64,000 nucleotides of DNA from a virus. Lineage: Duplodnaviria > Heunggongvirae > Uroviricota > Caudoviricetes. The position numbers and the translations under genes were made by a program. The notes beneath the pieces are model-generated. The model was not told where the DNA came from and searched no databases. It saw nothing but the letters and a program-made list of their open reading frames with translations. Of this stretch, positions 4,742-58,169 are shown in pieces (position 1 is the first letter of the stretch; every line of letters begins with the position of its first letter). The stretch lies in the IMG/VR virus record IMGVR_UViG_3300020201_000012, positions 1 through 64,000 of that record; one strand, given 5' to 3'.

Positions 4742-4777
4742 TAACAAAACATAAAAAAACCAAAGGAGTTTATAATT

Positions 4778-5089: not shown

Positions 5090-5424
5090 TGACTGATATT
5101 AGCCCTGAAGACGCTTCTGCACGAGTCAGAGCGGTATTCGGTGACAATGTAGAGGTTAAGCCTTTACAGAACCCAGTAAGCGATGATTCTGAGATAGATG
5201 TAGTAGACCTTATAACTAGGGTCTGTTACTTCTACCCTCAATACACGCTAGAGGCAGCTCAAGAATTAACAAATTCACAGGTTGCAGCACTGCTCATACA
5301 GGCAGAGAAGCAACGGGCTATAGAACTCTACAACCATGTACTTATCGCCGCCGCCCCACATTCTAAAAAAGGCGCAATGGTAGAAAAACTTATTAAACAG
5401 TATAAAAAGATCGCCGAGGCGTAG
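5089..5424 (+). CDS. Tail assembly chaperone (second)
   Basis: TAATG overlap with the previous chaperone, directly upstream of the tape measure. No obvious slippery heptamer was seen. Confidence 0.35.
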   Translation: MTDISPEDASARVRAVFGDNVEVKPLQNPVSDDSEIDVVDLITRVCYFYPQYTLEAAQELTNSQVAALLIQAEKQRAIELYNHVLIAAAPHSKKGAMVEKLIKQYKKIAEA

Positions 5425-5426
5425 CA

Positions 5427-8400
5427 ATGGCAGCTAACGAACTAGTAGTACAATTCAAAGAGATAGGCCTAGACCAAGTTAATGCCAAAATGGATCAGTA
5501 CAATGCTAGACTAACCAAAATGGTTGTGACTACCAATAAGGCTGGTCAAGAAATGGCTACAGCAACCGGTAGGGTTAGAAGTGGGCTTGATGACCAAGCC
5601 AAGGCTACAGACAATGTTCGTAATGCAACAAATCGTGCCACTCATTCTCAAGGTGAGTTTTTTGCTCATATCGCGAAAACAACAGTTCAATCTGCCCTAG
5701 TTAACAAACTCTTCTTAGAGCTTGTTGATGTTTCTGGCCAAGCTATAAAGCAGGTTGATCTAATGGAAAACTTCCCAGTTACGATGGCCTCTATGGGCCA
5801 ATCAATGAAGTCATCTAATGAAGCTCTTCAGGTTATGAGAGACTATGTTGGTCAAATCGGTGGGAACCTAGGCGACGCCACATCTTATATTACTCGTTTC
5901 ACGGGTGCTACAGGCAACGTTAAGGCTGCTACGGCAATCTTCGTTGGTCTTAACAACGCCCTCATCGCAGGTGATTCAAGTCTTGAAGAGCAACGCGGGG
6001 CGATTCTTCAGTTTGCTCAGGCTCTTGAACGTGGGAAGATAGAAGCAAAAGAGTGGAATATTCTTACTCAAAACATGTCGTTCCAGTTGAATCAGGTAGC
6101 TAAGTCAATGGGCTATGTAGACTCAACAGATCTTAGAAGGGCAATGGTAGAGGGTGAAGAGAGTATGGCTTCATTTGTTACCGCTCTAACAAAAATGTCA
6201 ACAGGAATGGGGCCAATAGTTTCTCAGGCAGAAGCTCGCATGAATGGTATGGAGTTCGCGTTCAACAGAATGAAGAACGCTGCCGTACAGGGGCTCTCTG
6301 CGGTCGTAGCTGCGATCGGTAGACAAAACATTGTTTCATTCTTCACCTTCATGACACAAGTAGTGCAAGTACTAGCTACTGCATTTGTAAGACTCATACG
6401 CGTTATAATAACCCTACTAAACTTGCTATTTGGTCTATTTGGGCTACCTAAATTAGCACTAAAAGACGACATAGCTAGCGTAGCAGAAAGCTTGGGGGAT
6501 GGTTCAGATAACGCTGGTGATCTAGCAGACGGTCTAGGCGATGCCGGTAAAGAAGCTAAGAAGCTAAACAAATCCCTTGCAAGCTTCGACAAAATGAATG
6601 TGCTAGCAGACAAAGAATCTGGTAGCGGTGGAAAAGAAAAGGATGCCAGTGGTGCTGGTTCCGGTTTTAATACGGATCAAATAGGCGTATTAGAAGATCT
6701 ATTTGATGGTATAGGTGATGACCTACAAGAAGTAAGCAAATGGGCTAAAATATTTTCGGGGGTCTTATTGGGTATAGCTGGAATCAAGTTTGCTGAAGGT
6801 ATTATAAATCAGATAGACGGTATAAGCGGGGCTTTTAAAAAGGCGCTAGCACCCGTCGCCGCTTTTAAGACTAGCTTACTAGGTAGTACAGATAAAGCCG
6901 GTACTAAAGTTGATGGCCTAGCTCAGAAAATTGGTAAACTGCCTGGTGTTATATTCACTGGCTTTGCTGGGGTTGGAGCATTTCTTCTTAACCCTTGGGT
7001 GCTTCTTGCTGCGGCTATTATCGCGGTGGTAGGGGCAATGATATATCTATACAATACAAATGAAAACTTCAAAAAGGGCTTCGATAGTGTTTGGGGGCCT
7101 GCAATTGAGAGTTTTAAGGAAGTAGCCAAGATCGTGGGCGGAACGCTTGTGGTCGCTTTTAATTTCTTAAAGAAGAAATTTGAAGAGTTCGTAAAACCAA
7201 TACTACCAAAACTTCAACCAGTAATAGAAGTGTTCAAGTCTATAGTAAGATGGGTAAAAGAAGCCGCAGATAAATTAGGCTTACTCAACACCCCTATGGA
7301 GACACTGGGTAAGGTAGTAGGCGCAGTAGCGGCTATTCTAGCTGGGTCTATTGTTGTGGCTTTACTGGCATTGGTCGGAATAGTAGTCACAGCAATCGGA
7401 ATCGTTGTAGCTGTAATAGCAGGCCTCATATTTATAGTAAAAGAAATATGGAAAAATTGGCAAGAAACATGGACTAAAGTAAATGCAGTTGCACAAACCG
7501 CATGGCAGAAGATGCAAAAAATATGGGACGGTATAACCGAATTCTTTATCAAGCTATGGGATGGCGTTAAAAAAGTCTTTAACAGTGTATCAACATTTCT
7601 TAGTGAATGGGGTCTAACCATTTTAGCTGTTATTCTCTGGCCCCTAACCCTTATAACAGCGGCGGTTATCGTAGTTAGTAGTGCTATTACATCTGCGTTT
7701 ATGTGGGCGTGGGACGAGGTAGTAAAAATATGGGATAAGGGCTTCGCATTCTTTACTGGCGTATGGAATAGTATAGTAGAAACGTTTAATAAGGTCGAGA
7801 AATTTTTCACCGATACGTTTACGAAAGCATGGGACGCAGTTAAACTAGTATGGTCAATAGTTTCAGATTGGTTTCTTGATACTGTTTGGACGCCGATAGT
7901 AACTGTATTTACACCGGTAGCAGAATGGTTTAAAGAGAAATTTGACTTGGCTTGGACTAATGTAAAATTAATCTGGGGTAATCTTGGCACCTACTTTAAG
8001 GATCGTTGGGAGAATCTAAAGACTAATCTTTCTGGTATAGCACAATGGTTTGGTGATACTTTTCAGAATGCTTGGAACAAAATAACTGGTATATTCTCTG
8101 AGTTGTGGAGCTGGTTTAAAACAAATGTTTGGGATAAAATAACTTCCTTATTCACTGGCGCAGGTACGGGTATCGGCGAAGCCGTTAGTAATGCATTCAG
8201 GTCTGTAGTTAATACAATGCTCACACAGGTTGTTGGTGTTATAAACGGCTTTATTAGCGGTCTTAACTCCGCTATACGCACAATTAACAAGGTCTCACCT
8301 AAAAATATAAACGAGATACCGTCACTGCCCGTGCCACAGCTTGCTCGTGGGGGTATTATCAATCAAGCGACACTAGCCATGATCGGCGAAAATGGCTCTG

Positions 8401-24621: not shown

Positions 24622-24692
24622 CATCCATTAGTTCAAGGGCAAGAATACACACCTACAGGTGTACGACAGCGGTTCAACTCCGTTATGGATAG
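24622..24692 (+). tRNA. tRNA-like gene with apparent 8-nt anticodon loop (ACCTACAG)
   Basis: Acceptor (6/7 bp), D-arm and T-arm are all present. The only consistent anticodon stem, TACAC/GTGTA, leaves an 8-nt loop. Confidence 0.35.
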
Positions 24693-25045: not shown

Positions 25046-25121
25046 GGGGGATTCATATAATGTCTTATTATGCTTGCCTTGCACGCAGGTCATCAGAGTT
25101 AGATTCTCTGATCTTCCACCA
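25046..25121 (+). tRNA. tRNA-Ala(UGC)-like (atypical)
   Basis: Acceptor GGGGGAT/ATCTTCC with two G-U pairs, anticodon loop CTTGCAC. Non-canonical D-loop (no GG) and T-loop (TTAGATT). Confidence 0.35.
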
Positions 25122-32174: not shown

Positions 32175-32425
32175 TCTTGTTTAATTTTACCGTCTTCTAG
32201 CCAGGCCACTACATATGAATCCATATCATAACCAGGGCTGTCATAACTACCGGCAGAAATGTATGTGTATTTATCTTTATCGAGGCCTTCTAGTAAATTA
32301 GCTATACCTATATCGTCGGTGCCAAAACGCTCGGCTAGCTGTTTCATGCGTTCTTCATACTTGACGTGACTGTTTATGTTAGTCAGTTTTTGATAGAACC
32401 GCAAGTCTTCTAATGTGTACTTCAT
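32150..32425 (-). CDS. Hypothetical protein
   Basis: ORF only. Confidence 0.2.
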   Translation of the reverse strand: MKYTLEDLRFYQKLTNINSHVKYEERMKQLAERFGTDDIGIANLLEGLDKDKYTYISAGSYDSPGYDMDSYVVAWLEDGKIKQECFVEESY

Positions 32426-32626
32426 TTATGCCTTTCATTAAGTTATAGCTTAATTATATGTCAGATTAATTTAAAAGTCAATACCTTTTTGCTTGCATTT
32501 TATTTTCTGTGTGGTATAATTAAACTATGAGCAATGTATATTATAGCGAAGAACGTATAACCGACTAATCGGCACTCTTTGTATTTGCTCAAAGTATTTC
32601 GCCGAAAGGCGTTTTTTTAATATATG

Positions 32627-32702
32627 GCCTAGTTGACAAGTGGTTTAAGTCGCTGCCCTTTCAAGGCAGTTATCACGGGTTCAAATCCCGTCTAGGTCAC
32701 CA
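32627..32702 (+). tRNA. tRNA-Glu(UUC)
   Basis: Acceptor GGCCTAG/CTAGGTC, anticodon stem CTGCC/GGCAG, loop CTTTCAA. Confidence 0.65.
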
Positions 32703-32742
32703 TAAGCAGCGTTCGCATAGCGGCTATTGCAGGAGACTGTAC

Positions 32743-32828
32743 GCGGTATTATACATCTAAAGACGATGCCTGGACTGTAAATCCAGTGTCCTCGGACTTA
32801 CTAGGTGCAATACCTAGATACCGCACCA
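32743..32828 (+). tRNA. tRNA-Tyr(GUA)-like gene inside the insertion (partly degenerate)
   Basis: Perfect acceptor GCGGTAT/ATACCGC+ACCA, anticodon stem CTGGA/TCCAG with loop CTGTAAA, and a long variable arm. The T-loop TGCAATA is non-canonical and there are 4 nt between the acceptor and the D-stem. Confidence 0.45.
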
Positions 32829-32865
32829 GAGACTACTAGACTCCTCTTTATGTTATAATTAATTT

Positions 32866-33249
32866 ATGGTAGTAAACACGAACAGGGATCGCGGCAATGC
32901 TGGTCTTGCTCTTGCAATATCATACTATGGGGCGAACGGATACACCGTATCGATACCGCTTAATGATACACAAGATTATGATTTGCTAATAGATAATGGA
33001 GTATCTATATCTAAAGTTCAGGCAAAGTTTTCAAAACAGCGAAGCGAACACGGGGTTCAAAAAGTACCTCTACGCAGTTCAGGCGGAACAAACGGTGGTG
33101 TATACAAGACATTAATTGACACGAATATAGACATTTTATTCTGCTCGAACCCGAATATGGAGATGTGGGCTATACCGAAATCTGAGCTAACACAAAGAAA
33201 TGTTCTCAATCTTGGTGAAAAATATCATAAGTACAAAGTTAACCTGTAA
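32866..33249 (+). CDS. ORF inside the tRNA-Tyr insertion; possible PD-(D/E)XK-type nuclease (homing-endonuclease candidate)
   Basis: 127 aa, preceded by an extended -10 (TGTTATAAT). Segment DYDLLID…SKVQAK gives a weak D…(D/E/Q)xK pattern. Its stop codon TAA (33247-33249) is the A36-A37-A38 of the tRNA-Tyr anticodon loop. Confidence 0.35.
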   Translation: MVVNTNRDRGNAGLALAISYYGANGYTVSIPLNDTQDYDLLIDNGVSISKVQAKFSKQRSEHGVQKVPLRSSGGTNGGVYKTLIDTNIDILFCSNPNMEMWAIPKSELTQRNVLNLGEKYHKYKVNL

Positions 33250-33490
33250 ATCTCCCGCCTTCGGGCATCGTAGGTTCGAGTCCTACACGCTGCACCATAT
33301 AATAATGTACCTCGTTATAATAGATAACACAGACTTTAAGTTGACCATTATGAGGTAGTGTGCTATTATTAGAAAGTCGGGAGGGTAGTTGCTTTGATAT
33401 AGAGAATTCAATTATCAAAGCTGACGTAAAACCTATACAAATTTAGGGGGTAACAAATAGTTCGACAACCTTCGCCACAAAATAAAACAC

Positions 33491-33518
33491 TTGACACGGC
33501 CAGTCAGTGTGGTATAAT
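33491..33518 (+). promoter_or_regulatory. Consensus sigma70 promoter (TTGACA-16-TATAAT)
   Basis: Perfect hexamers. An ATG lies at the predicted transcription start, giving a leaderless 27-codon ORF (33525-33608). Confidence 0.45.
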
Positions 33519-33648
33519 TAACATATGAGAACATCATCACTACATCAACAGCATTTATCTCTACTCAATCAACCGAGTTGTGATTTTAATTGGGGTTATG
33601 GTGTATAAGCGTTCTCTACAAAAATAGAATAAAAACAAAAACGCAAAA

Positions 33649-33685
33649 AGGCACCTAATCTCAAAAAAAAGGTGTCTTTTTCTTT
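33649..33685 (+). terminator. Rho-independent terminator (aggcacct…aggtgtct + T-run)
   Basis: 8-bp stem with one G-U pair, followed by TTTTTCTTT. Confidence 0.45.
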
Positions 33686-33694
33686 AACAATTAT

Positions 33695-34130
33695 AACGGA
33701 AAACCCCGGCTGGAAGAATCGTGGTACTGGGGCAAGAACACAGAGGATATGAGTTTTAGGTGTTCAACAGACGGACGAGGCTAAGGCTCGGTATTCAGTA
33801 ACAAGGAGAGTGAAACTCCTCTACCCTTCGGGGATGAGACTGTGAAACCGAGATGGGTAGCGAGCGGTCTGTAAAGCACTCCACAGTTATGGTGTGCGGT
33901 GTACACTCTTCGGGGCAGCTAGAAGATATGGTTATGTACGGGGCGGTCCGCCTACAGTGCTTGAAAGATAGTAACGGTGCCTGAAAAGTAAGACGATTCG
34001 GCATGTCACATTCACGTAGAGTACCAATAAAAGCTCTACACCGGGTTTTATTCTCGGTACCTAGTAGTATCGGTGAATGGGCGGTACAAAGTAGTTAAAG
34101 TATCTTAAACTATTAAAACCGCCCAGCAAT
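33695..34130 (+). ncRNA. Structured non-coding RNA candidate (~430 nt, class unknown)
   Basis: No ORF longer than 30 codons. GC content locally higher than the surroundings. Many short hairpins capped by UUCG tetraloops (cccTTCGggg, ctcTTCGggg, gcggTCcgcc). A long-range stem GGGCGGT…ACCGCCC. Flanked by a terminator upstream and tRNA-Trp downstream. Confidence 0.35.
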
Positions 34131-34133
34131 TGT

Positions 34134-34208
34134 AGAGAGTTAGTGAAATGGTTATCACAAGAGCTTCCAAACCTCTTATTATCGGTTCGAGTCCGATGCA
34201 CTCTGCCA
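34134..34208 (+). tRNA. tRNA-Trp(CCA)
   Basis: D-stem GTGA/TCAC, anticodon loop TTCCAAA, T-arm ATCGG-TTCGAGT-CCGAT, discriminator G, CCA. One A-A mismatch in the acceptor. Confidence 0.5.
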
Positions 34209-35479: not shown

Positions 35480-35944
35480 ATGGAACAAAAATATAACAAC
35501 ACAATAGAGTGGCTTGCTGGGCTGATAGAAGGTGAAGGAAGCTTCATAATTAAAAAAACGGGCGTATCAATAACTTGTCAGATGACAGATGAAGATGTCA
35601 TTAAAAACATAAAGAGTGTATTCGGCGGCGCAGTGTATTTCAACAAAAAAAGAAAAGAGCACTGGAAAGATTCTTGGAAATGGCAGATAAATGGTGAAGA
35701 TGCCTACAATCTGGCCGAACAGTTGAAGCCCCACATGTTCGGAAGAAGAACGCATCAAGTAAACAAATTGCTATATCAATATGAAAATTCGCCTAAAAAG
35801 CTACAACAACATAGAACTTCTAGAACAATACTTAAAGTCAAAGAACTGAGAGAATCTGGGTTATTGCACAGAGAAATAGCAGAAAAGCTAGGTGTTCATA
35901 GAACATTTGTGTCACACATATTGAGAGGAAAATACGGAGCGTGA
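35480..35944 (+). CDS. LAGLIDADG homing endonuclease (single-motif type) with C-terminal HTH
   Basis: LAGLIEGEGSF motif near the N-terminus. Free-standing between tRNA genes. Confidence 0.7.
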   Translation: MEQKYNNTIEWLAGLIEGEGSFIIKKTGVSITCQMTDEDVIKNIKSVFGGAVYFNKKRKEHWKDSWKWQINGEDAYNLAEQLKPHMFGRRTHQVNKLLYQYENSPKKLQQHRTSRTILKVKELRESGLLHREIAEKLGVHRTFVSHILRGKYGA

Positions 35945-37184: not shown

Positions 37185-37538
37185 GGGGCTGCCAAGGATT
37201 AGATTGCACGTTGAAAATCAGAAAAGCGAGTAGGTTGCTCACCTTTATAGGGCAAAAGACTTCTAATTGCAAAATTACTAGCATTTGTTAAGGAAAAGAT
37301 TGCTGACTTCGGTCGCGGTTTCAACCTGACACCAGCTTACGCTACGGCTTAAGCCACCCATCGTTCGATAGTAGTAGATCGAAAAGGGTGTTATACACTA
37401 CTGAGTTTTCTTGCCAGTCATAAAGGCAAGTGGTACGGGCGTTAAGATATTAATAGATGTTCTTATCTACAAAAGAACTACACTCGTAGAACACTGACAG
37501 AAGATTAGCAAGACGGGGGTTCGAATCCCCCCGGCTCC
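37185..37538 (+). ncRNA. ssrA: tmRNA (SsrA)
   Basis: 5' GGGGCUG pairs with 3' CGGCUCC. The 3' end GACGGGGGUUCGAAUCCCCCCGGCUCCA is the canonical tmRNA T-arm/acceptor. An internal reading frame ends …P-A-Y-A-T-A-UAA (stop at 37330-37332). Confidence 0.6.
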
Positions 37539-37553
37539 AAGAGTAATTAAGTT

Positions 37554-38066
37554 TTATTGATTATTGTTGGAGCTGTATAAAATATTATACCTGTTAACTA
37601 TCTCTATAGCCCAATTATAGGCATCTTCTGCACACACCCCAGATGGTTGGGGCTTACACCATAACTCTAGGTTTTCTAATCTATTATCATTTCTTATACC
37701 ATTTTTATGGTGAACGTTCTCCCCAGGTAGCAAATATCTGCCTAGAAACGCCTCCATAACAATAACGTGCTCTTGCACGATGTGTCTTTTATTGCGTGGG
37801 TGATTGGGCACATACATCGTGACATAACCACTACTACTGGTGTATTTTTTTGCTATTTTACCCGAAGCTACAGATTTTTTATTACTTTTATTATGACATC
37901 GTATGCACAGACTAGATAATATCTGTTTTTTGCCTTCGCAACCGTTGCATAAATTCCACCTATTATATTGAGCAAACCTACATCTTGGACACAATCTATG
38001 TCTATCGTCTGATCTTAGTGCAGAGTCGCATCTTATGCATGTTTTTGGTATTTTTTTATCTATCAT
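37554..38066 (-). CDS. HNH endonuclease (HNH_3/AP2-type)
   Basis: …HIVQEHVIVMEAFLGR…ENVHHKNGIRNDNRLENLEL… plus N-terminal Cys-rich repeats. Confidence 0.6.
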   Translation of the reverse strand: MIDKKIPKTCIRCDSALRSDDRHRLCPRCRFAQYNRWNLCNGCEGKKQILSSLCIRCHNKSNKKSVASGKIAKKYTSSSGYVTMYVPNHPRNKRHIVQEHVIVMEAFLGRYLLPGENVHHKNGIRNDNRLENLELWCKPQPSGVCAEDAYNWAIEIVNRYNILYSSNNNQ

Positions 38067-50934: not shown

Positions 50935-51167
50935 TATTTAGAGTGACAATGAAAGATACGGATGTTCTAGACGACGGAATCGATGAGGCGCTTGATAAGT
51001 GGTTTTTGACGAGTGGTTTACCAGAAGACGAGCAAGAGGAGATTCGTGAGATACGTCACGAAAAAGCATCAGACGTTGCAGGCCAGTGGTTTAGGTATGG
51101 TGAGTATTTAACTGTAGAAATAGATACAGAAAAAGAAACAATAAAGGTAATACGAAATGAAGTTTAA
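50931..51167 (+). CDS. Hypothetical acidic protein
   Basis: ORF only. Confidence 0.2.
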   Translation: MIFRVTMKDTDVLDDGIDEALDKWFLTSGLPEDEQEEIREIRHEKASDVAGQWFRYGEYLTVEIDTEKETIKVIRNEV

Positions 51168-52428
51168 AGAATTAGAGAACAAGAATTATGCAGCGACCAT
51201 AGTAAGAATTGATAGTCTGCACCCACTAGAGAATAGTGATAATCTCATCGGTACACCGCTTCTAGGTATGCAAGCTGTCGTTTCAAAAGACACGGAAGTG
51301 GGCACGATAGGCGTTGTTTTCGTAGCCGAGACTCAGTTGAGTGAAGAATACACAGCTAGAAATAACCTATTTCGTCACCACGAGTTTAATGAAGATAAAG
51401 ACAAGACTGGCTTCATAGAAGATAATCGTCGAGTGAAGGCTATTAAGTTGCGTGGCAGTAATTCTAACGCGTTATTTATGCCGCTTTCGTCTTTGGCTTA
51501 TACAAAAGTTGACCTTAGCGAATTCAAGATAGGTGATGCATTTGAAGAGTTAAACGGCTATGAGATTTGTAAGAAGTATCAAGTCAAATCTAAGTCTTAC
51601 CCGACCCATGAAAAAAATAAGCATAAAGTGTTCACCCGTGTCGATGAAAGAATGTTTCCGCGACATTATGATACTGACCAGTATTACAGAGTTCTTGATA
51701 CATTTAAGCCCTACACCGAGATTATTGTTACCCAAAAACTACACGGTACATTACTAAGGTTCTCAAATATTCCGGTTAAGCGTAAACTTTCACTAGCCGA
51801 AAAATGGGTGTCTAAACTAGGTGTTAAAGTACAGCAAGAAGAATATGCTCATATCTATGGGTCTAATCGTGTTATTAAAGATGCTAACAATAATAACCAA
51901 AGACATTTCTATGAACACGATATATGGACAGAAGCAGCTAAAAGATTTGACGATATGATTCCTGAAAACTTTGTTGTTTATGGTGAGTTAATCGGCTGGA
52001 CACCAGACGGTGCCCCTATTCAAAAGAACTATACATACCATGTGCCTCACCCGACTAACGAACTATACGTCTACCGAGTTGCTCAGATTAATGGGCAAGG
52101 TATCATGACCGACTTAAGTTGGGATCAGTTGAAAGAGTTCTGTAGAGATAGGGGTATGAAGCACGTACCAGAACTATGGCGTGGTAAACACCAAGACTTC
52201 AGCCCAGAAGAATGGCTAGACACAAACTATAGCGAGAAGTTGCATGGTGGTTATCCACAGGCAGTACCGCTAGACAAAGAGAGCCCGTGCGAAGAGGGTA
52301 TATGCATAAGAGTTGAAGGTCTAGCACCCTATATAGCAAAATTAAAATCACCAGAATTTTTCGCCCATGAAACAAAAATGATGGACGAAGAGGTACTGGA
52401 CATAGAAGAAGAAAGCAAGGTAGAGTGA
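51157..52428 (+). CDS. ATP-dependent RNA ligase, Rnl2-like nucleotidyltransferase domain with an N-terminal OB-like extension
   Basis: Motif I QKLHGT (compare T4 Rnl2 KIHGTN), motif III VVYGELIGW, motif IV EEGICIRVEG, motif V IAKLKS. About 190 aa N-terminal extension. Confidence 0.5.
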   Translation: MKFKELENKNYAATIVRIDSLHPLENSDNLIGTPLLGMQAVVSKDTEVGTIGVVFVAETQLSEEYTARNNLFRHHEFNEDKDKTGFIEDNRRVKAIKLRGSNSNALFMPLSSLAYTKVDLSEFKIGDAFEELNGYEICKKYQVKSKSYPTHEKNKHKVFTRVDERMFPRHYDTDQYYRVLDTFKPYTEIIVTQKLHGTLLRFSNIPVKRKLSLAEKWVSKLGVKVQQEEYAHIYGSNRVIKDANNNNQRHFYEHDIWTEAAKRFDDMIPENFVVYGELIGWTPDGAPIQKNYTYHVPHPTNELYVYRVAQINGQGIMTDLSWDQLKEFCRDRGMKHVPELWRGKHQDFSPEEWLDTNYSEKLHGGYPQAVPLDKESPCEEGICIRVEGLAPYIAKLKSPEFFAHETKMMDEEVLDIEEESKVE

Positions 52429-52652
52429 AATATAACGTAAAATTTTACCTAAATTCAGGGCTTGTGTATGAAATGGAGACAGACGACCATAGGAACTATC
52501 AAAAAATATTAAAGAAAAAGAGTAACGTTCTCCAGATTTTCTCGAAAGAAAACGAAGTTAAATATATCCCAGTCTCTAATATACAACTTCTCGAAGTTAA
52601 AGAGAACGATACGCTTAAAAGAAAAGAAAAACAAAATGAACAATCAAGTTAA
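52425..52652 (+). CDS. Hypothetical small protein
   Basis: ORF only. Confidence 0.2.
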   Translation: MKYNVKFYLNSGLVYEMETDDHRNYQKILKKKSNVLQIFSKENEVKYIPVSNIQLLEVKENDTLKRKEKQNEQSS

Positions 52653-53550
52653 AGTTATAATCACCAGAGGCTTACCCGCTTCTGGTAAAAGCACCTATGC
52701 CCGCGAGTGGGTTTCAGAAGATACTTCTAGTAGGGTTTGTATAGAAAAAGATATAATCAGAAAAAATGCCAGCCTATTTAAGGACGGCGTTTATACGCAT
52801 AAGCGTGGTGATGAATCAATAGTAATAAGAGAAAGAGATAAACTCATAAACCAATCTTTACAAGATGGCAAAAGTGTTATATCATCTGATACTAACCTAT
52901 TGCAGAAACACATTGCACAAATATCTTCTATTGCTAGAAAATATAATGCCGAGATAGAGGTTGTAAGTTTCTTAGACGTACCATTGAAAGAGCTTATTGA
53001 TAGAGATAAGAATAGGCAAAACTCAGTTGGAGAACAAGTGATTCGTAAGATGTTTCACGAACAAGTTAAGAAGATGCCAACCTTCTTGAAGTTTGACCCG
53101 AAGTTGCCAAATTGTGTTATTAGTGATTTGGATGGTACTCTGACCCTTGGCCCAAAAGATCGCTCGCCCTATGAGTGGGCAAAAGTAGGTAATGATGACC
53201 TTAACTTAGGTATATCACATATACTAGACGGCGTCAAAATTATAGACTATGCAAAGATATTTATATTCAGTGGTAGAAACGCTGTATGTCGCCCACAGAC
53301 AGAAGATTGGTTAGAGCGTAATGATATTGAGTATGACTTACTAGCAATGAGGCCACAGTTCTTAGAAGACGGTAAAACAGAAAACAACTTGTCAGATGAG
53401 ATAATTAAAGCCGACATGATTGAAAAACATATTCGCGGGAAATACAACATTCTTCTATGGTTTGATGACAGAATTAGAATTTCTACTATGCTTAGAGACG
53501 TCTACGGAATTAACGTCGCACAGCTTGGGGATACTCGTTTCGAATTTTAA
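52636..53550 (+). CDS. pnkp: Polynucleotide kinase-phosphatase (T4 Pnkp-like)
   Basis: N-terminal P-loop GLPASGKST. C-terminal HAD phosphatase motif ISDLDGTL with later DD motifs. Confidence 0.65.
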   Translation: MNNQVKVIITRGLPASGKSTYAREWVSEDTSSRVCIEKDIIRKNASLFKDGVYTHKRGDESIVIRERDKLINQSLQDGKSVISSDTNLLQKHIAQISSIARKYNAEIEVVSFLDVPLKELIDRDKNRQNSVGEQVIRKMFHEQVKKMPTFLKFDPKLPNCVISDLDGTLTLGPKDRSPYEWAKVGNDDLNLGISHILDGVKIIDYAKIFIFSGRNAVCRPQTEDWLERNDIEYDLLAMRPQFLEDGKTENNLSDEIIKADMIEKHIRGKYNILLWFDDRIRISTMLRDVYGINVAQLGDTRFEF

Positions 53551-53551
53551 G

Positions 53552-53580
53552 TTGACAATTCAATAAAACTGGTGTAGAAT
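53552..53580 (+). promoter_or_regulatory. Sigma70-like promoter (TTGACA-17-TAGAAT)
   Basis: Sequence match only. Confidence 0.4.
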
Positions 53581-53586
53581 TAAAGT

Positions 53587-53949
53587 ATGAATACAATACA
53601 ATATATAGTAGTTAATAAAGATTTAAAAATGTCAGCAGGCAAAGCTATGGCACAGGTTGCTCATGCAATAATGCACTCGGCAGCATCAAAAAATTTCAAC
53701 AACTATCTCGATGCGAAACAGCGAACAGTGATAGTTCTAGAGGGAACGGGCACTCAGATATTAAACCTATTTAAGTATCTGATCCTTAGAGATATAGGCG
53801 CTAATTACGTCATAGACGAAGGTATTAACGAAATACCCACAATGTCTGTTACTGCTCTCGCGACAGATGTTTTAGATATTGAAGATAAGGATACACGATA
53901 CATCTTTCGGGGCTTCAAGCTATACAAGCATGGCAGGTTTCAAAGATGA
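53587..53949 (+). CDS. Peptidyl-tRNA hydrolase, PTH2-family-like
   Basis: YIVVNKDLKMSAGKAMAQVAHA… and …VIVLEG…VIDEG…IP..SVTALA match the PTH2 pattern. Confidence 0.45.
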   Translation: MNTIQYIVVNKDLKMSAGKAMAQVAHAIMHSAASKNFNNYLDAKQRTVIVLEGTGTQILNLFKYLILRDIGANYVIDEGINEIPTMSVTALATDVLDIEDKDTRYIFRGFKLYKHGRFQR

Positions 53950-54137
53950 AATACATATACGTATTAATAGACAAAGAAACGGATGGTTTCTGGGCAAATA
54001 CCAAGAACTATCACCGTAAGCGTGCTATTCAGGCATATACTAGTGAAGCTAGGGCTCTTGCTGCATTGTCAAACTTCTGGCCCAAAGTCGAGCCAAATAC
54101 AGTCGTCGTAAAGAAATTCAGAAGGATTACAGAATGA
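53946..54137 (+). CDS. Hypothetical small protein
   Basis: ORF only. Confidence 0.15.
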   Translation: MKYIYVLIDKETDGFWANTKNYHRKRAIQAYTSEARALAALSNFWPKVEPNTVVVKKFRRITE

Positions 54138-54442
54138 ATGAAGATATGGCATCGGAAAAAATAGTAATATTTTGGCGTTTTGGGTATTTTAAACTATTTG
54201 ACAGTAGGGGTAACCAGGTAAACGACAGGTTCGTATTAACTGAGGATTATGATTGGGCAAGAATATTTTGGCGCTTCTATTATAGGGAGGCATATTATGA
54301 ATAAAATAACAGTAATTACTTTTGGTATATTTCTATTTGGTATGAATGTATATTTAGCACTAAATTCAAGTCTAGATTGGTGGACCGTGTTAGGCACCTC
54401 GTCTTCCGCTTTTATGGTTGGTTTTGGGTGGGGCAAAAAATA

Positions 54443-55144
54443 ATGAAACCTAAATCTATAATACTAGAAGGCATAACCGGTTCTAAGGCTTATGGTCTAG
54501 ACACCGAGAAATCAGATACCGATATTAAGGGTATATATTTATTGCCGACTGCAAAAGTATTAGAGATGGGTTTCGATTTACAGCACACAACAGTTGACAA
54601 TGTAGACCCTGACTGGGTTTATCATGAAACTGCTAAATTTATGAAGCTTGTAGTGGGTGGCAACCCAACCGTAACTGAACTTCTGTATTTAAATGATTAT
54701 ACGATAATGACACCAATAGGTCAAATATTAGTAGACAATAGAGACGCATTTTTGTCAACTAAAGCAGTTATGAACGCTTATCGTGGTTACGCATTCTCAC
54801 AGGCTAAGAAGTTAAACAACCGCACAGAGCAGGGTCTTGATGGTTATGACAGTTCACTTAAGAACCGTTTCTCTAAGCATACGAGACATCTTTGGAGGTT
54901 ATTAGAACAAGCAGAACAGCTACTTACCACTGGTACTCTGAGTGTTAAGCTAACTCAAAAACAACGTGAAGAATGCTTTGCTCTTGGTGAAAAAAGTGCT
55001 AGCGAAGTTGTAGATTATTTTATAGAAAAAGATAAATATGTATCAGAGCTATCGAGTGTATTGCCAGATAAGCCAGATATTGAAAAACTTAATAACATTC
55101 TATACAATATTAGAATGAATAACTACGACGAGATAGAATTATAA
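54443..55144 (+). CDS. Pol-beta-superfamily nucleotidyltransferase
   Basis: GITGSKAYGLDTEKSDTDIKG gives the GS…DxD nucleotidyltransferase motif. The start is taken at the ATG overlapping the upstream stop (the track ORF begins at 54377). Confidence 0.45.
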   Translation: MKPKSIILEGITGSKAYGLDTEKSDTDIKGIYLLPTAKVLEMGFDLQHTTVDNVDPDWVYHETAKFMKLVVGGNPTVTELLYLNDYTIMTPIGQILVDNRDAFLSTKAVMNAYRGYAFSQAKKLNNRTEQGLDGYDSSLKNRFSKHTRHLWRLLEQAEQLLTTGTLSVKLTQKQREECFALGEKSASEVVDYFIEKDKYVSELSSVLPDKPDIEKLNNILYNIRMNNYDEIEL

Positions 55145-56073
55145 TGTCATACAATAACTGGAAAATGATGGATAAGATAGATGTTGCGGTGAGAACTGGC
55201 GATAATAGTTATCGTGGGTTTACTGGCTACATCGTACCTCATGGCGACAAAGAATCTCTTGAAAAGGCTAAAGACTGGGCAAGAAACCAAACATGGGATG
55301 ACGAACTTCGTAAGCATCTAACAGTACATGAACCAGATGTTCACACCTTTGACAACGAAGGCTTTACGGCAAAGATCCTTCAATCAGCCGGTGGCTCGTC
55401 ACAGGGTGGAAGATTGTCTTTCTGGGCGTGTGAAGTAGAAAAAGACGGTATCAAGTTCACTATCGGTGTAAATGATGCAGTTCTAGCTGACTTAATCAGG
55501 TCAAGCGATATGTCAAATGGTCTAGTTAAGCAGAAAGTTATGTTTGCTCGTAGGGCAGGTCAACCAGGACTCATACACGAAGGTATGCAATCTTACCAAG
55601 ATGCAACAGCAGACATGGCCCATAAAGCAACCATGAAAGCCGCCAAGAAAACCTCTAAGTGGGAAATTGGTGGAGTGTATTCATCTATAACCCAGACTGC
55701 TATATGTCTTGGTGAAGTATTTGATTCCATGGAAGAATATACAGTTCAAAATAATACTTGGCGGTACGGTAGAACTGAAACAAAATTTCGCAAGCGTGAT
55801 GTGCCAGTTAAGACTTTAGCTTGGGTTCACATATATAACCCTGAAAATGGCCTGCCGAAAGACTTTAACGAGCTGATGAATAAAAAACTAGAAGATAAAA
55901 GATATGTATATTTTTACACTGGTAAGCCGCCGGCACGCGCCAAGACAGGGCAACTAGAAGTCAAAGACACCGATATGAAGCTACTTGATAAGGTTTTATC
56001 TTTACGTAGAGAGAGTGTGAACTATGGTGAAGTAGAGATTACTAAGCGCTTTGCGAGGAAATTAAATGTCTAA
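55144..56073 (+). CDS. Hypothetical protein
   Basis: 309 aa; overlapping start with the nucleotidyltransferase gene. Confidence 0.2.
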   Translation: MSYNNWKMMDKIDVAVRTGDNSYRGFTGYIVPHGDKESLEKAKDWARNQTWDDELRKHLTVHEPDVHTFDNEGFTAKILQSAGGSSQGGRLSFWACEVEKDGIKFTIGVNDAVLADLIRSSDMSNGLVKQKVMFARRAGQPGLIHEGMQSYQDATADMAHKATMKAAKKTSKWEIGGVYSSITQTAICLGEVFDSMEEYTVQNNTWRYGRTETKFRKRDVPVKTLAWVHIYNPENGLPKDFNELMNKKLEDKRYVYFYTGKPPARAKTGQLEVKDTDMKLLDKVLSLRRESVNYGEVEITKRFARKLNV

Positions 56074-56587
56074 ATATAAACCTTGGTTCTTTGTAGATGT
56101 TGAAGCAAGAGGAACTTCTCCTGTTAATGGTACTATGACAGAATTTGGTATTGTTCACTATGATACCAAAGAAACATTTCATGGTATTCTTTATGAAGGT
56201 ACGCCAGACCCAGAAAACCCAGCAAAACCAATCGTAGGTCAGAGAGTCAACGCCACAGGAACAGTTGTGCTAGATTTAAACGACTGGCTAGCTAGCTTCA
56301 TCGGTCACGGCAATGCGACAATGATTTCAGACAACCCAGCGTATGACTTTATGTGGATCGCAGGAATGTATGATGAAGTTGGTCTAGAAAACCGATTTGG
56401 TCACTCAGCTCGAAGAATAAGCGACTTTTACGCTGGTGTACAACTAAAATGGGGCGACACACAGGGCTGGAAACGTTACAGAGAAACACCACACGATCAT
56501 AACCCTGTTAATGATGCAATGGGTAATGTAGAAGCATTTATGAGAATAGAAGAAATAGTAGCAGAAAAGAAAAGAGAAGCTAAATGA
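56066..56587 (+). CDS. DEDDh 3'-5' exonuclease (RNase T/oligoribonuclease-like)
   Basis: FFVDVEARG (Exo I), DNPAYDFMW (Exo II), HNPVNDAMGN (Exo III). Confidence 0.45.
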   Translation: MSKYKPWFFVDVEARGTSPVNGTMTEFGIVHYDTKETFHGILYEGTPDPENPAKPIVGQRVNATGTVVLDLNDWLASFIGHGNATMISDNPAYDFMWIAGMYDEVGLENRFGHSARRISDFYAGVQLKWGDTQGWKRYRETPHDHNPVNDAMGNVEAFMRIEEIVAEKKREAK

Positions 56588-56690
56588 AATACGCGTTTCC
56601 ACCAAAAACACTGTATGATACCCTGTGCACACCAAAGATGTATAAAAAGTACCCCGGTTCGCCAACGTGGGCTTATGATGGGCAGTTTAT

Positions 56691-56984
56691 ATGGATAGTT
56701 CAATGACACCTAAAAGATACAAAGCAACGACTCTACCCCCAGAGACACCAGACCCTTTCATGGGCTTTAAGACTTTTACCATTAAGGGTTACTATGTTAA
56801 GCACGTTTACGCAACCCCCCACCCAATAAGTACTAAAGAAAAAGATGATCGGTTTGTTGCAGAACATACTAAACATTACATTATGTCTGACGGCTTCTCT
56901 GACTGGGGTTTACCACGAGAGCTAGAGGTACACGAAATAGATATTAATACTTTAGAGGAATGTATAGAGTCAACAAATGGATGA
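56691..56984 (+). CDS. Hypothetical protein
   Basis: ORF only. Confidence 0.2.
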   Translation: MDSSMTPKRYKATTLPPETPDPFMGFKTFTIKGYYVKHVYATPHPISTKEKDDRFVAEHTKHYIMSDGFSDWGLPRELEVHEIDINTLEECIESTNG

Positions 56985-57222
56985 CAAAACCAACGAAACG
57001 GAAGATTTTCCAGTTACCCTCGCTTTTGGGCAGGGCATTGAAGATATTATAGGTCAAATCACTCTATCTAAAAAAGCACTAGATATAATAAAGGCCGCAC
57101 CGCAAATGTGCGAATTTGCAATAGCATTCACAGGAGACGTTAACCAAGATGGAACATACAGTAACGGAAAGTTGCTTGAAGTTTCGCTAGTAATAAGGAA
57201 AGAACAATGGATAAAGCACTAA
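56977..57222 (+). CDS. Hypothetical protein
   Basis: ORF only. Confidence 0.2.
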   Translation: MDDKTNETEDFPVTLAFGQGIEDIIGQITLSKKALDIIKAAPQMCEFAIAFTGDVNQDGTYSNGKLLEVSLVIRKEQWIKH

Positions 57223-58169
57223 ACATTCAAAAAGAAGTACAACGTATTCTCGGCACCGAAGAGGTATATCTTGTTGGTGGTTCAGTTCGTGACTTAGTTA
57301 TGGGTAATGAACCTAAAGACTATGACTTCACTACCTCAATGCTACCCGAAGAAATGGTAGAGAAAGTTAAGGCTGCCGGTCGTCGTGTTTATACTATCGG
57401 CGAGAAGTTTGGCACTATTGGGTTCAAAGTGCCAGTGGTCGTAGGTTATGAATTAGAAGATACGGAGTCGATTTACGCAGAAGAGGCTAAGTACAAGAAC
57501 ATAGTCGAATATGAGTATGTAGAAGTCACTACGTTCAGAAGCGAAGTTTATACAAGTAAATCACGCAAACCTGAAGTTGAGTTTGTTACGAGTCTAGATG
57601 AAGACCTTAAGCGACGTGACTTTACAATGAATGCTATGGTTCTTAGAAGCGATGGTACTATATACGATCCTTTCGGTGGCAAACTAGATATTCATAAGAA
57701 ACAAATAATCACAGTCGGTATGCCAAAAGATAGGATTCTAGAAGACTCACTTCGTATCCTCCGTGCTGCACGGTTCGCCGCAAGATACAATTTTTCAATC
57801 GACCCTAACTTCATAGGTAAGGCAAGGCAACTAGCAGACCGTATCTTTGATGTATCTGTTGAGAGATGGGTGCAAGAGCTAGATAAACTTCTGGCATCAA
57901 AACACACCTTAAAAGGGCTTGAATCCTTATACGAGATGGGTGTTTTTCAAAGAATATTCCCCGAGATTATATCGGTACCAAATCTGTTGCTGAAGACACC
58001 AGATGTAGATGATGTCTGGAATGACCTACTGCGCAACGTTCATGTACCTGCACAAATTAAAGAACCAACAAGAACAAGAAAGCACATCAACGCTGGCATA
58101 TGTGCAAGATTTAAGTTTAGTAATGATCGATGTGATGTGATACTTGACAAACAAAAGAAAAAGGAGTAA
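57207..58169 (+). CDS. tRNA nucleotidyltransferase (CCA-adding enzyme) / poly(A) polymerase-family head domain
   Basis: LVGGSVRDLVMGNEPKDYDF (GG.VRD…DxD), RRDFTMNAM and DPFGG motifs. Confidence 0.65.
   Translation: MDKALNIQKEVQRILGTEEVYLVGGSVRDLVMGNEPKDYDFTTSMLPEEMVEKVKAAGRRVYTIGEKFGTIGFKVPVVVGYELEDTESIYAEEAKYKNIVEYEYVEVTTFRSEVYTSKSRKPEVEFVTSLDEDLKRRDFTMNAMVLRSDGTIYDPFGGKLDIHKKQIITVGMPKDRILEDSLRILRAARFAARYNFSIDPNFIGKARQLADRIFDVSVERWVQELDKLLASKHTLKGLESLYEMGVFQRIFPEIISVPNLLLKTPDVDDVWNDLLRNVHVPAQIKEPTRTRKHINAGICARFKFSNDRCDVILDKQKKKE

What the first reader, a model, noticed from the sequence alone, without database searches (positions are those of the whole stretch)
32706..33297. tRNA-Tyr(GUA) split in its anticodon loop by a 507-bp insertion that carries its own tRNA-Tyr-like copy and an ORF
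The 5' segment at 32706-32741 and the 3' segment at 33244-33297 join to give a textbook class II tRNA-Tyr: perfect 7-bp acceptor, 5-bp anticodon stem, loop CUGUAAA, 14-nt variable arm, canonical T-arm, and CCA. Between them lies a 507-bp insertion containing three things. First, a second, partly degenerate tRNA-Tyr-like gene (32743-32828) whose anticodon stem-loop CTGGACTGTAAATCCAG is intact but whose T-loop is TGCAATA. Second, an extended -10 box TGTTATAAT. Third, a 127-codon ORF with a weak PD-(D/E)XK-like signature whose TAA stop is formed by A36-A38 of the host tRNA anticodon loop. The pentamer CTGTA is directly repeated at both junctions. The arrangement resembles an intron or a mobile insertion targeting the tRNA-Tyr anticodon loop, but it does not fit group I rules: no assignment of boundaries within the CTGTA repeat gives a U at the 5' exon end together with a G at the intron end. 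An element that disrupts a tRNA while bringing a replacement copy has not, as far as I know, been described for phage tRNA arrays.
Basis: seen in the sequence. Interest (0 to 1): 0.85.

Follow-up and report, generated by a model that had tools for sequence, protein, structure and literature searches.

The report
Homing endonuclease cassette splitting phage tRNA-Tyr
A phage tRNA-Tyr gene is cut in two at its anticodon loop by a 507-bp block holding a selfish DNA-cutting enzyme gene and a second, unusual but intact tRNA-Tyr gene; this is most likely a DNA repair scar that the spare tRNA makes tolerable, not a spliced intron.

Summary
ARAGORN with intron search finds one interrupted tRNA in the 64-kb window: tRNA-Tyr(GUA) at 32706-33297, carrying a 507-nt insertion in the anticodon loop.

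The insertion has three parts:
- An 86-nt inner tRNA-Tyr ("B"). It belongs to a conserved, non-canonical phage tRNA-Tyr class: 13 of 24 pairs covary, and it stands alone in 14 other phage arrays.
- An extended -10 box 6 nt from the ATG, which suggests a leaderless mRNA.
- A 127-aa ORF of the I-Ssp6803I family of PD-(D/E)XK homing endonucleases (Pfam E 1.8e-14; model TM 0.78-0.83 to 2OST).

No group I core or valid splice boundaries exist. Six related phages carry one intact tRNA-Tyr and no endonuclease at this slot after tRNA-Glu. Three others carry B, the endonuclease and only a 3' tRNA fragment. The 5' half is therefore dispensable.

Best reading (about 0.7): endonuclease-triggered break repair placed B plus the endonuclease gene in the anticodon loop of a canonical tRNA-Tyr gene. 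The TGTA overlap marks a staggered cut, and B supplies tRNA-Tyr.

One point is unexplained: the orphan 3' halves are 92-94% conserved beside an ORF only 70% identical.

This is a new variant of intron-less homing.

The parts
32626..32702 (+). tRNA-Glu(UUC), the conserved left neighbour of the tRNA-Tyr slot. It is followed by the spacer TAA.
   Evidence: ARAGORN; Rfam 62.9 bits. The same Glu + 3-nt spacer + tRNA-Tyr layout occurs in relatives L081, L477, L479, L480, L481 and L482.
32706..32741 (+). 5' half of canonical tRNA-Tyr 'A' (positions 1-36). It ends ...GGAGACTGTA inside the anticodon loop.
   Evidence: ARAGORN intron mode. Its acceptor strand GCAGCGT is perfectly complementary to ACGCTGC at 33287-33293. 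It is absent from relatives L013 and L014.
32737..32741 (+). Left copy of the CTGTA repeat. TGTA is the inferred staggered-cut overlap.
   Evidence: Read directly from the sequence.
32743..32828 (+). Inner tRNA-Tyr(GUA) 'B', a non-canonical class with D loop TAAAGAC and T loop TGCAATA. It has G1-C72, A73, a long variable arm and CCA, and is probably the working tRNA-Tyr.
   Evidence: Cloverleaf as minimum-free-energy fold, z -3.6. Family covariation: 97.4% of cells paired, 13 of 24 pairs changed on both sides, 0 of 500 shuffles as good. Stand-alone copies in 14 viral tRNA arrays. Present at this slot in L477 and L479 with no endonuclease. Missed by ARAGORN and by the Rfam tRNA model.
32851..32859 (+). 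Extended -10 box TGTTATAAT. There are 6 nt between it and the ATG and no Shine-Dalgarno sequence, so a leaderless endonuclease mRNA is inferred.
   Evidence: Sequence. TGnTATAAT lies 6-7 nt before the ATG in L013, L014 and L015 too. It was not listed by the -35/-10 scan because the -35 is poor.
32866..33249 (+). 127-aa homing endonuclease of the I-Ssp6803I / PDDEXK_5 family. The TAA stop is formed by anticodon-loop positions 35-37 of tRNA-Tyr A.
   Evidence: Pfam PF11645, E 1.8e-14. A family profile hits PDB 2OST at E 1e-7. AlphaFold model pLDDT 92, with top Foldseek hits 2OST chains at TM 0.78-0.83. Under purifying selection: identity at codon positions 1/2/3 is 75/89/42% against L013.
33245..33297 (+). 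3' half of tRNA-Tyr 'A' (positions 33-76 plus CCA). The right copy of CTGTA lies at 33244-33248.
   Evidence: ARAGORN. It matches annotated phage tRNA-Tyr genes at 86-87%. It is 92-94% identical to the orphan halves in L013 and L014.

Best explanation
The locus is a DNA-level hybrid of two alleles of one phage tRNA-Tyr slot, made by a free-standing homing endonuclease. It is not an intron.

In this phage group the position after tRNA-Glu holds a single tRNA-Tyr gene. That gene is either canonical (type A) or non-canonical (type B).

The 127-aa enzyme belongs to the I-Ssp6803I family. It is transcribed from its own extended -10 promoter, probably as a leaderless mRNA. By inference it cuts the near-palindromic anticodon stem-loop DNA of canonical tRNA-Tyr genes (GGAGACTGTAAATCTCC) with a stagger over TGTA.

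A phage carrying tRNA-Glu followed by type A was cut there. The break was repaired from a donor carrying tRNA-Glu, B, the endonuclease gene and a type A 3' remnant. On the right, repair used homology in the 3' half. On the left, the unprocessed 3' end (...CTGTA) was joined or primed by microhomology at the spacer just before B. The 5' half was therefore kept, and B plus the endonuclease gene ended up nested inside A.

Gene A is dead, which removes the endonuclease's own target from this genome. B supplies tRNA-Tyr. With target-homologous flanks on both sides, the block can now home into intact type A genes like an intron. It carries a spare tRNA gene in place of a ribozyme.

Shown: the anatomy, the protein family, the conservation of B, and the polymorphism at the slot. 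Inferred: the cleavage site, the repair route, the leaderless expression, and that B is charged and resists cutting.
For: 1. Enzyme identity. Pfam PDDEXK_5, a profile hit to I-Ssp6803I, and a fold match at TM 0.78-0.83. The motif PLNDTQDYDL...KVQxK is conserved across 30 homologues. The ORF is under purifying selection.

2. Link to the tRNA-Tyr anticodon loop. Among 96 homologue loci, the flank classification puts 56 directly 3' of a tRNA-Tyr 3' exon of the intron-bearing type. One further locus shows only the group I motif. Eight more lie just 3' of an ARAGORN-called tRNA-Tyr, and four have an intact tRNA-Tyr just 3' of the ORF. L191 was read in full and has a group I intron between U35 and A36. 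Other ORFs abut intact tRNA-Tyr genes (L003, L004, L185, L210, L214, L472). L013, L014 and L155 show the same junction of ORF stop with anticodon loop.

3. Presence/absence polymorphism in syntenic relatives. tRNA-Glu, a 3-nt spacer and one intact tRNA-Tyr with no endonuclease occur in L081, L481 and L482 (canonical), L477 and L479 (B type) and L480 (B2 type). L081 shares the junction 'caccataagc' with the window.

4. The 5' half is dispensable. L013 and L014 have tRNA-Glu, B, the ORF and a 3' half but no 5' half. L015, L207, L176 and L222 carry shorter 3' fragments broken at other positions, as expected of repair scars.

5. B is a working-type RNA. It shows covariation in all five helices and stands alone in 14 arrays. 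It is the only tRNA-Tyr candidate among the tRNAs of the window.

6. No ribozyme. There is no Rfam hit at E <= 10, whereas a true tRNA-Tyr group I intron in L188 is picked up. Only 37 nt of the insertion lie outside B and the ORF.

7. Precedent. SegB, a free-standing endonuclease next to tRNA-Tyr in T6, cuts inside tRNA genes and rearranges the locus through microhomology (PMC13096335).
Against: 1. Conservation of the orphan 3' halves. Those in L013 and L014 are 92-94% identical to the window's, while the adjacent ORF is 70.6% identical with saturated third positions. They are closer to one another than to any of 121 sampled intact type A genes. A neutral scar of that age should have decayed. 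This needs either constraint (homing arm, mRNA 3' end) or recent resampling, and neither is shown.

2. The left junction. It sits 1 nt from the 5' end of B. The microhomology model needs a donor spacer TAC that was not observed; the spacers seen are TAA, AAT, CAA, TAT and GTT.

3. A5' and A3' match perfectly, and no decay is visible in either half. The insertion is therefore either very recent or maintained.

4. Neither cleavage specificity nor resistance of B was tested. B shares the 11-bp core GACTGTAAATC with A.

5. The phage carries an RNA ligase and a PNKP, so joining of the halves at the RNA level cannot be excluded.
Confidence: 0.7

Rival explanations
1. Same function (no splicing, B is the working tRNA) but a different history. 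The two halves come from two separate copies of gene A. For example, endonuclease-driven segmental duplication was followed by self-cleavage of each intact copy and deletion back to B on one side and to the ORF stop on the other.
For: SegB drives tandem amplification of a tRNA-Tyr + endonuclease unit in T6. L113 carries two tandem tRNA-Tyr genes after tRNA-Glu. L013 holds a further remnant, GCAGGGT...GCCCTGCACCA, that repeats the acceptor stem of its orphan half. 3' fragments of varying length follow the ORF in other loci.
Against: It needs two deletions with exact end points, against one insertion. The acceptor strands of the two halves match perfectly, although the acceptors of the orphan halves in L013 and L014 differ from the window's. 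No tandem copy is present in the window.
Confidence: 0.15
2. The block is a functional intervening sequence removed by proteins. RNase P cuts at the 5' end of B. A nuclease cuts at the same position in both CUGUA copies. The phage PNKP and RNA ligase then heal and seal the halves into mature tRNA-Tyr A. This would be a bacterial-virus analogue of enzyme-catalysed tRNA splicing.
For: The halves are undecayed and perfectly complementary. The 3' half is strongly conserved even in relatives. The window encodes an RNA ligase (51157-52428), a T4-type PNKP (52636-53550), RlaP and a CCA-adding-type enzyme. In the minimum-free-energy fold of the whole 592-nt precursor the outer acceptor stem forms. Cuts at equivalent positions of the direct repeat would restore CUGUAAA exactly.
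Against: L013 and L014 lack the 5' half within their contigs. No bulge-helix-bulge or other defined splice structure was found, and the junction helix is no better than many others. No enzyme is known that would define the 5' end of the 3' half. RNase P would leave an extra C. RNA repair kits are common in large phages with tRNA arrays (established knowledge from T4), so their presence is weak evidence. B already provides tRNA-Tyr.
Confidence: 0.07
3. [quoted passage not shown]
For: The endonuclease family is the same, and so is the kind of site, a tRNA anticodon loop. Real group I introns sit at U35/A36 of tRNA-Tyr next to homologues of this ORF.
Against: There is no Intron_gpI or other ribozyme hit at E <= 10, while the control intron is detected. 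Within the CTGTA repeat no boundary gives both a 5' exon ending in U and an intron ending in G, whereas L191 satisfies both. The 124 nt before the ORF are fully accounted for by B (86 nt, a covarying cloverleaf) plus a 37-nt promoter spacer. The ORF is under protein-level selection to its last codon. Relatives lack the 5' exon.
Confidence: 0.02

Closest known systems
I-Ssp6803I, the PD-(D/E)XK homing endonuclease in the group I intron of Synechocystis tRNA-fMet (PDB 2OST; Pfam PF11645)
   Same: Same protein family and fold. The gene sits in a tRNA anticodon loop. The presumed target is the near-palindromic anticodon stem-loop DNA.
   Different: Here there is no intron RNA: the ORF has its own promoter and reads into the tRNA's anticodon loop. 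The host gene is tRNA-Tyr of a phage, not tRNA-fMet of a cyanobacterium. The lost gene is offset by a second tRNA gene rather than by splicing.
Free-standing endonucleases of phage tRNA clusters and intron-less homing: T4/T6 SegB (PMC13096335); pathway scheme in PMC3984707
   Same: A stand-alone endonuclease gene lies beside tRNA-Tyr in a phage tRNA array. It cuts within tRNA genes, flanking markers are carried along during repair, and microhomology-based rearrangements of the tRNA-Tyr locus occur.
   Different: SegB is a GIY-YIG enzyme lying between intact genes. Here a PD-(D/E)XK enzyme lies inside the target gene, at the inferred cut site, with both halves of the target retained.
Collaborative (trans) homing: an endonuclease-less intron protects the site of a neighbouring free-standing endonuclease (T4 mobE/I-TevIII, PMC2790892; scheme in PMC3984707)
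   Same: In this sample, 56 of 96 homologue loci place the ORF just 3' of a tRNA-Tyr 3' exon of the intron-bearing type. L191 was read in full and has a group I intron at U35/A36. In both layouts the endonuclease's likely target is interrupted in its own genome.
   Different: In the window the interruption is the endonuclease gene itself plus a tRNA gene, so the host gene is not restored at the RNA level.
'Fractured genes': host genes split by a free-standing endonuclease gene and repaired by split inteins (Dassa et al. 2009, PMC2677866)
   Same: An endonuclease gene sits between the two halves of a host gene without being part of a continuous self-splicing element.
   Different: Fractured genes are restored by protein trans-splicing. 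Here no restoring activity is evident and function is supplied by a paralogous gene.
Integrating elements that insert into tRNA genes and carry a replacement segment (established knowledge of phage and island att sites)
   Same: Insertion into a tRNA gene is made harmless by sequence the element brings with it.
   Different: Those elements use an integrase and duplicate only the 3' part of the same tRNA. Here no integrase or attachment repeats exist, and a whole, structurally different tRNA-Tyr is present.

Membership tests
Group I intron | Conserved catalytic core (P3-P8 with the guanosine-binding site) detectable by a covariance model | tested here: not met
   No Intron_gpI hit at E <= 10 in 32400-34200. 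The control tRNA-Tyr intron in L188 scores 15.8 bits, E 0.17. Only 37 nt of the insert lie outside B and the ORF.
Group I intron | 5' exon ends in U (U.G pair in P1) and the intron ends in G | tested here: not met
   The six possible boundaries within CTGTA were checked on the sequence. Only one gives a terminal G, and it puts G at the end of the exon. The control L191 has ...CTGT|G...AAG|AAATC.
Group I intron | Both exons are kept wherever the insertion is kept | tested here: not met
   L013 and L014 keep B + ORF + 3' half but have no 5' half.
I-Ssp6803I-type PD-(D/E)XK homing endonuclease (PF11645) | Sequence membership above the curated cut-off | tested here: met
   54.4 bits against a cut-off of 26.1, E 1.8e-14. 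1316 homologues, all annotated PF11645.
I-Ssp6803I-type PD-(D/E)XK homing endonuclease (PF11645) | Restriction-endonuclease-like fold with a D...(E/Q)xK active-site motif | tested here: met
   Model pLDDT 92. The best PDB matches are the four 2OST chains, TM 0.72-0.83. D39 and Q52-x-K54 align with YDL...VQVK of 2OST and are conserved.
I-Ssp6803I-type PD-(D/E)XK homing endonuclease (PF11645) | Site-specific cleavage of the uninterrupted allele at the insertion point | not testable with these tools
   Inferred only, from the break points (A36 and T33), the U35/A36 intron site in related loci and the family's association with tRNA-Tyr.
Free-standing homing endonuclease gene (intron-less homing) | Own expression signals, outside any intron or intein | tested here: met
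   TGTTATAAT lies 6 nt before the ATG, with conserved spacing in L013, L014 and L015. No ribozyme. Transcription itself was not tested.
Free-standing homing endonuclease gene (intron-less homing) | Present or absent at the same locus among related genomes | tested here: met
   Present in the window, L013, L014 and L015. Absent in L081, L477, L479, L480, L481 and L482, all with tRNA-Glu then tRNA-Tyr.
tRNA (for the inner gene B) | Cloverleaf supported by compensatory changes; anticodon loop, discriminator and CCA | tested here: met
   24 pairs, 97.4% paired, 13 with changes on both sides, 0 of 500 shuffles as good. Loop CUGUAAA, G1-C72, A73, CCA.
tRNA (for the inner gene B) | Canonical D loop G18G19 and T loop T54-Psi55-C56; detection by standard tRNA models | tested here: not met
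   D loop TAAAGAC and T loop TGCAATA. Not called by ARAGORN and no RF00005 hit at E <= 10. Only the L014 variant reaches 31.9 bits.
Protein-spliced tRNA intron (archaeal/eukaryal, bulge-helix-bulge) | Bulge-helix-bulge at the exon-intron junctions, usually at position 37/38 | tested here: not met
   The possible junctions lie between 31/32 and 36/37. Folds of trimmed and full precursors show no 3-4-3 bulge-helix-bulge. The junction duplex is not exceptional.
Transposon / insertion sequence with target-site duplication | Transposase gene and terminal inverted repeats | tested here: not met
   The only ORF is the endonuclease. No inverted repeat pairs the two ends of the insert.

The most novel reading that the evidence does not exclude
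tRNA-Tyr A is a deliberately split gene whose halves are joined at the RNA level. The primary transcript pairs the two halves. RNase P and a sequence-specific cut in each CUGUA copy release B and the endonuclease mRNA. The phage's own PNKP and RNA ligase then seal the anticodon loop. This would be enzyme-catalysed tRNA splicing in a bacteriophage. The unexpectedly conserved orphan 3' halves in relatives would then pair with 5' halves encoded elsewhere.
Probability: 0.06. Interest if true: 0.92.

Novelty: new variant of a known kind. Interest (0 to 1): 0.6.

Why it matters
The textbook view is that a homing endonuclease gene can occupy a conserved gene only inside a self-splicing intron or intein. 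Free-standing ones are expected to stay between genes. Here a free-standing endonuclease gene sits exactly in its presumed target, the tRNA-Tyr anticodon loop, and the cost is covered by a second tRNA-Tyr gene of a different structural class.

Together with the related loci, this gives a natural series for one enzyme family:
- beside an intact tRNA-Tyr;
- beside an intron-protected tRNA-Tyr;
- inside tRNA-Tyr with no intron.

That series bears on how mobile tRNA introns such as the I-Ssp6803I intron arose.

The finding also exposes a conserved phage tRNA-Tyr class that standard tRNA finders miss. And it shows that the tRNA-Tyr slot of this phage group varies far more than its neighbours. Such variation fits an arms race with the endonuclease, or with host nucleases that target tRNA-Tyr (PMC13096335).

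Tried and rejected
- Group I or other ribozyme. The Rfam scan at E <= 10 found nothing, while a positive control worked. All six boundary assignments were checked by hand. Rejected.
- Bulge-helix-bulge splicing motif, or a special helix joining the two junctions. A -15 kcal/mol duplex appeared. The same 5' segment pairs better (-21 kcal/mol) with unrelated parts of the insert, so it was dropped.
- Transposon with a 5-bp target duplication. No transposase and no terminal inverted repeats.
- B as a decayed pseudogene. Rejected by covariation and by stand-alone copies.
- A chimeric tRNA from the 5' part of B and the 3' part of A. The acceptor and anticodon stems do not pair in L013 or L014 (hand check).
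- Searches for further split alleles by junction patterns in viral contigs. The 23-24-nt patterns gave zero hits. The phage collection has no close relative.
- phmmer of the single ORF against the PDB found nothing. A family profile was needed.
- L001 as a clean second example. It has a 5' class II tRNA fragment and a T arm with a matching acceptor flanking B2 and the ORF. The halves do not join into a convincing tRNA-Tyr.
Full report
**1. What is there**

The window is part of a large phage genome with two tRNA arrays. ARAGORN finds 24 tRNAs, and Rfam adds one more tRNA and a tmRNA. No tRNA-Tyr is found by standard search.

With intron search, ARAGORN reports tRNA-Tyr(GUA) at 32706-33297 with a 507-nt insertion in the anticodon loop. 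This is the only interrupted tRNA it proposes anywhere in the 64 kb, even with introns of up to 2500 nt allowed.

The joined halves form an 85-nt class II tRNA-Tyr. The join is 97% identical over 66 nt to uninterrupted tRNA-Tyr genes in other viral contigs. The same split locus recurs at 99.4-99.9% identity in three other assemblies from other samples, so it is not an assembly artefact.

**2. Contents of the insertion**

After one base (C32742) comes an 86-nt cloverleaf, B, at 32743-32828, with anticodon loop CUGUAAA, G1-C72, A73, a long variable arm and CCA. It lacks the canonical D-loop GG and the T-loop TΨC. ARAGORN and the Rfam tRNA model both miss it.

B is not a decayed copy. Eight distinct relatives keep all five helices. 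Across them 97.4% of cells are paired, 13 of 24 pairs change on both sides, and 0 of 500 shuffles do as well. The same class stands alone between ordinary tRNAs in 14 viral arrays that carry no endonuclease.

Next come 37 nt holding an extended -10 box, TGTTATAAT, 6 nt before the ATG and with no Shine-Dalgarno sequence. This spacing is kept in L013, L014 and L015 and suggests a leaderless mRNA, which is an inference.

The 127-aa ORF is a solid member of Pfam PDDEXK_5 (E 1.8e-14). A family profile hits I-Ssp6803I (2OST) at E 1e-7. A confident model (pLDDT 92) has the 2OST chains as its best PDB matches, at TM 0.78-0.83 for the best two chains. The ORF evolves as a protein: identity at codon positions 1/2/3 is 75/89/42% against L013.

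**3. Not an intron**

No ribozyme family matches at E <= 10. A genuine tRNA-Tyr group I intron found during this work (L188, L191) is picked up and obeys the rules: the exon ends in U35 and the intron ends in G.

In the window no boundary within CTGTA gives both features. Nothing but B and a promoter precedes the ORF, and the ORF is coding up to the junction. There is no bulge-helix-bulge and there are no terminal inverted repeats.

**4. Comparative evidence**

The closest ORF relatives (62-73% identity) lie in syntenic phages. L013 and L014 have tRNA-Glu, a 3-nt spacer, B, the same promoter, the ORF, and a tRNA-Tyr 3' half starting at T33 with the stop codon in the anticodon loop. They have no 5' half in their contigs. 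L015 has a different 3' fragment.

I fetched further relatives through the neighbouring PD-(D/E)XK_1 gene. All have tRNA-Glu, a 3-nt spacer and a single intact tRNA-Tyr with no endonuclease. That tRNA-Tyr is canonical in L081, L481 and L482, B type in L477 and L479, and B2 type in L480. L081 even shares the junction 'caccataagc' with the window.

The slot is therefore polymorphic for tRNA-Tyr type and for the endonuclease. The window holds a canonical allele with a B allele plus the endonuclease nested inside it.

**5. The enzyme family and tRNA-Tyr**

- Of 96 homologue loci, the flank classification puts 56 directly 3' of a tRNA-Tyr 3' exon of the intron-bearing type. Fifty of them also carry the group I motif GTCCAGACTA. 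L191 was read in full and has a group I intron at U35/A36.
- One further locus shows only the group I motif.
- Eight more lie just 3' of an ARAGORN-called tRNA-Tyr, and four have an intact tRNA-Tyr just 3' of the ORF.
- Eight precede tRNA-Ser(GCU).
- Other members abut intact tRNA-Tyr genes.

The intron site U35/A36 falls inside the TGTA shared by the window's two halves: A5' ends at A36 and A3' starts at T33. I infer that the enzyme cuts the near-palindromic anticodon stem-loop DNA with a stagger over TGTA.

**6. Mechanism proposed**

The endonuclease cut a canonical allele. On the right, repair used the 3'-half homology present in a donor of the L013 type. On the left, the unprocessed ...CTGTA end was joined or primed at the spacer just before B, so the 5' half was kept.

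The result inactivates gene A, and with it the enzyme's own target, while B supplies tRNA-Tyr. It also creates a block with target homology on both sides, which could home into canonical tRNA-Tyr genes.

This is intron-less homing taken into the gene itself. The nearest precedents are:
- SegB in T-even tRNA clusters, which cuts tRNA genes and rearranges tRNA-Tyr by microhomology (PMC13096335);
- collaborative homing (PMC2790892, PMC3984707);
- endonuclease-'fractured' genes (PMC2677866).

As of 2014, all phage group I introns known were in protein genes, none in phage tRNA genes (PMC3984707). Stand-alone PDDEXK_5 genes have been counted in jumbo phages, with no context given (PMC12880540).

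**7. What does not fit**

The orphan 3' halves in L013 and L014 are 92-94% identical to the window's. The adjoining ORF is 70.6% identical, its last 45 nt only 53-60%, and its third codon positions are saturated. The three halves resemble each other more than any of 121 intact canonical genes sampled. A neutral scar should have decayed.

Possible reasons are selection on the element's homing arm, a role at the mRNA 3' end, recent resampling from intact alleles, or a 5' half encoded elsewhere.

The phage also carries an RNA ligase, a T4-type PNKP, RlaP, a CCA-adding-type enzyme and PTH2. Joining of the halves at the RNA level cannot be excluded, and I give it about 6-7%.

The closeness of the left junction to B (1 nt) is explained only by an unobserved donor spacer.

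**8. Verdict**

The intron reading is not supported. The reading 'mobile insertion with a replacement tRNA' is supported in substance, with corrections.

This is a new variant of a known kind of system. It is of real interest to people who study homing endonucleases, phage tRNA arrays and the origin of tRNA introns.

Noticed in passing
window 51157-58169: A cluster of tRNA repair and maintenance genes. It holds an RNA ligase (51157-52428), a T4-type polynucleotide kinase-phosphatase (52636-53550), peptidyl-tRNA hydrolase PTH2 (53587-53949), RlaP (54377-55144) and a CCA-adding-type nucleotidyltransferase (57207-58169).
   Followed up: partly
window 35480-35944 (+) and 37554-38066 (-): Two more homing-endonuclease-like genes in or beside the tRNA array: a LAGLIDADG gene between tRNA-Ser and tRNA-Gln, and an HNH_3 gene.
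   Followed up: no
window 37185-37540 (+); 25046-25118 (+); 24622-24692 (+): Rfam finds a phage-encoded tmRNA (62.8 bits) that ARAGORN missed, and an extra tRNA at 25046-25118. ARAGORN's 'tRNA-???' with a 2-nt anticodon lies at 24622-24692.
   Followed up: no
window 33491-34133 (+): A perfect 12/12 sigma-70 promoter (33491-33518) drives about 600 nt with no credible ORF, ending just before tRNA-Trp. Parts of it are conserved in L013 and L015. The same gap between tRNA-Tyr and tRNA-Trp exists in L479, L480 and L481. No Rfam family matches. This is probably an undescribed phage non-coding RNA.
   Followed up: partly
window 32494-32619 (+): A TGTGGTATAAT promoter is followed by a roughly 95-nt transcript ending in a GC hairpin and a T run just before tRNA-Glu. 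There is only a weak, sub-threshold Rfam hit to a streptococcal sRNA. The terminator-plus-Glu layout is shared with L081.
   Followed up: no
L191 2125-2432; L188 244-521; about 55 further metagenome loci: Mostly in human-gut contigs, the PDDEXK_5 ORF stands free just downstream of a tRNA-Tyr 3' exon of the intron-bearing type. L191, read in full, has a group I intron between U35 and A36. In L188 the intron also holds an HNH ORF. This is a collaborative-homing-like layout. I found no description of tRNA-Tyr group I introns in the paper library.
   Followed up: partly
L139-L152 (e.g. L143 8490-8575), L477, L479: A conserved non-canonical phage tRNA-Tyr class has D loop TAAAGAS, T loop WGCRWTW and 4 nt between the acceptor and D stems. 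ARAGORN does not detect it, and it scores below the Rfam tRNA cut-off. It may be an allele resistant to the endonuclease or to host nucleases. L143 also carries a ROOL RNA at 7104-7656.
   Followed up: partly
L013 1129-1156: The minihelix GCAGGGT-ACCGATGAAA-GCCCTGC-ACCA lies just before tRNA-Trp. It repeats the acceptor stem and the ACCA end of that phage's orphan tRNA-Tyr 3' half, and may be an internally deleted second copy.
   Followed up: no
L001 2788-3876: A possible second nested case. It has a 5' fragment of a class II tRNA broken near CTG of its anticodon loop (2788-2826), a B2-type tRNA-Tyr (2833-2917) and a 231-aa PDDEXK_5 protein with a C-terminal extension (3001-3696). These are followed by a T arm whose acceptor strand, CTCCCCT, matches the 5' fragment (3853-3876). 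The halves do not rejoin cleanly. ARAGORN also proposes an interrupted tRNA around an HNH ORF at 4324-5265.
   Followed up: partly
L013 560-612, L014 714-766 compared with window 33245-33297: The orphan tRNA-Tyr 3' halves are 92-94% conserved next to an ORF with saturated synonymous divergence, and the break in conservation falls exactly at T33. This is unexplained.
   Followed up: partly
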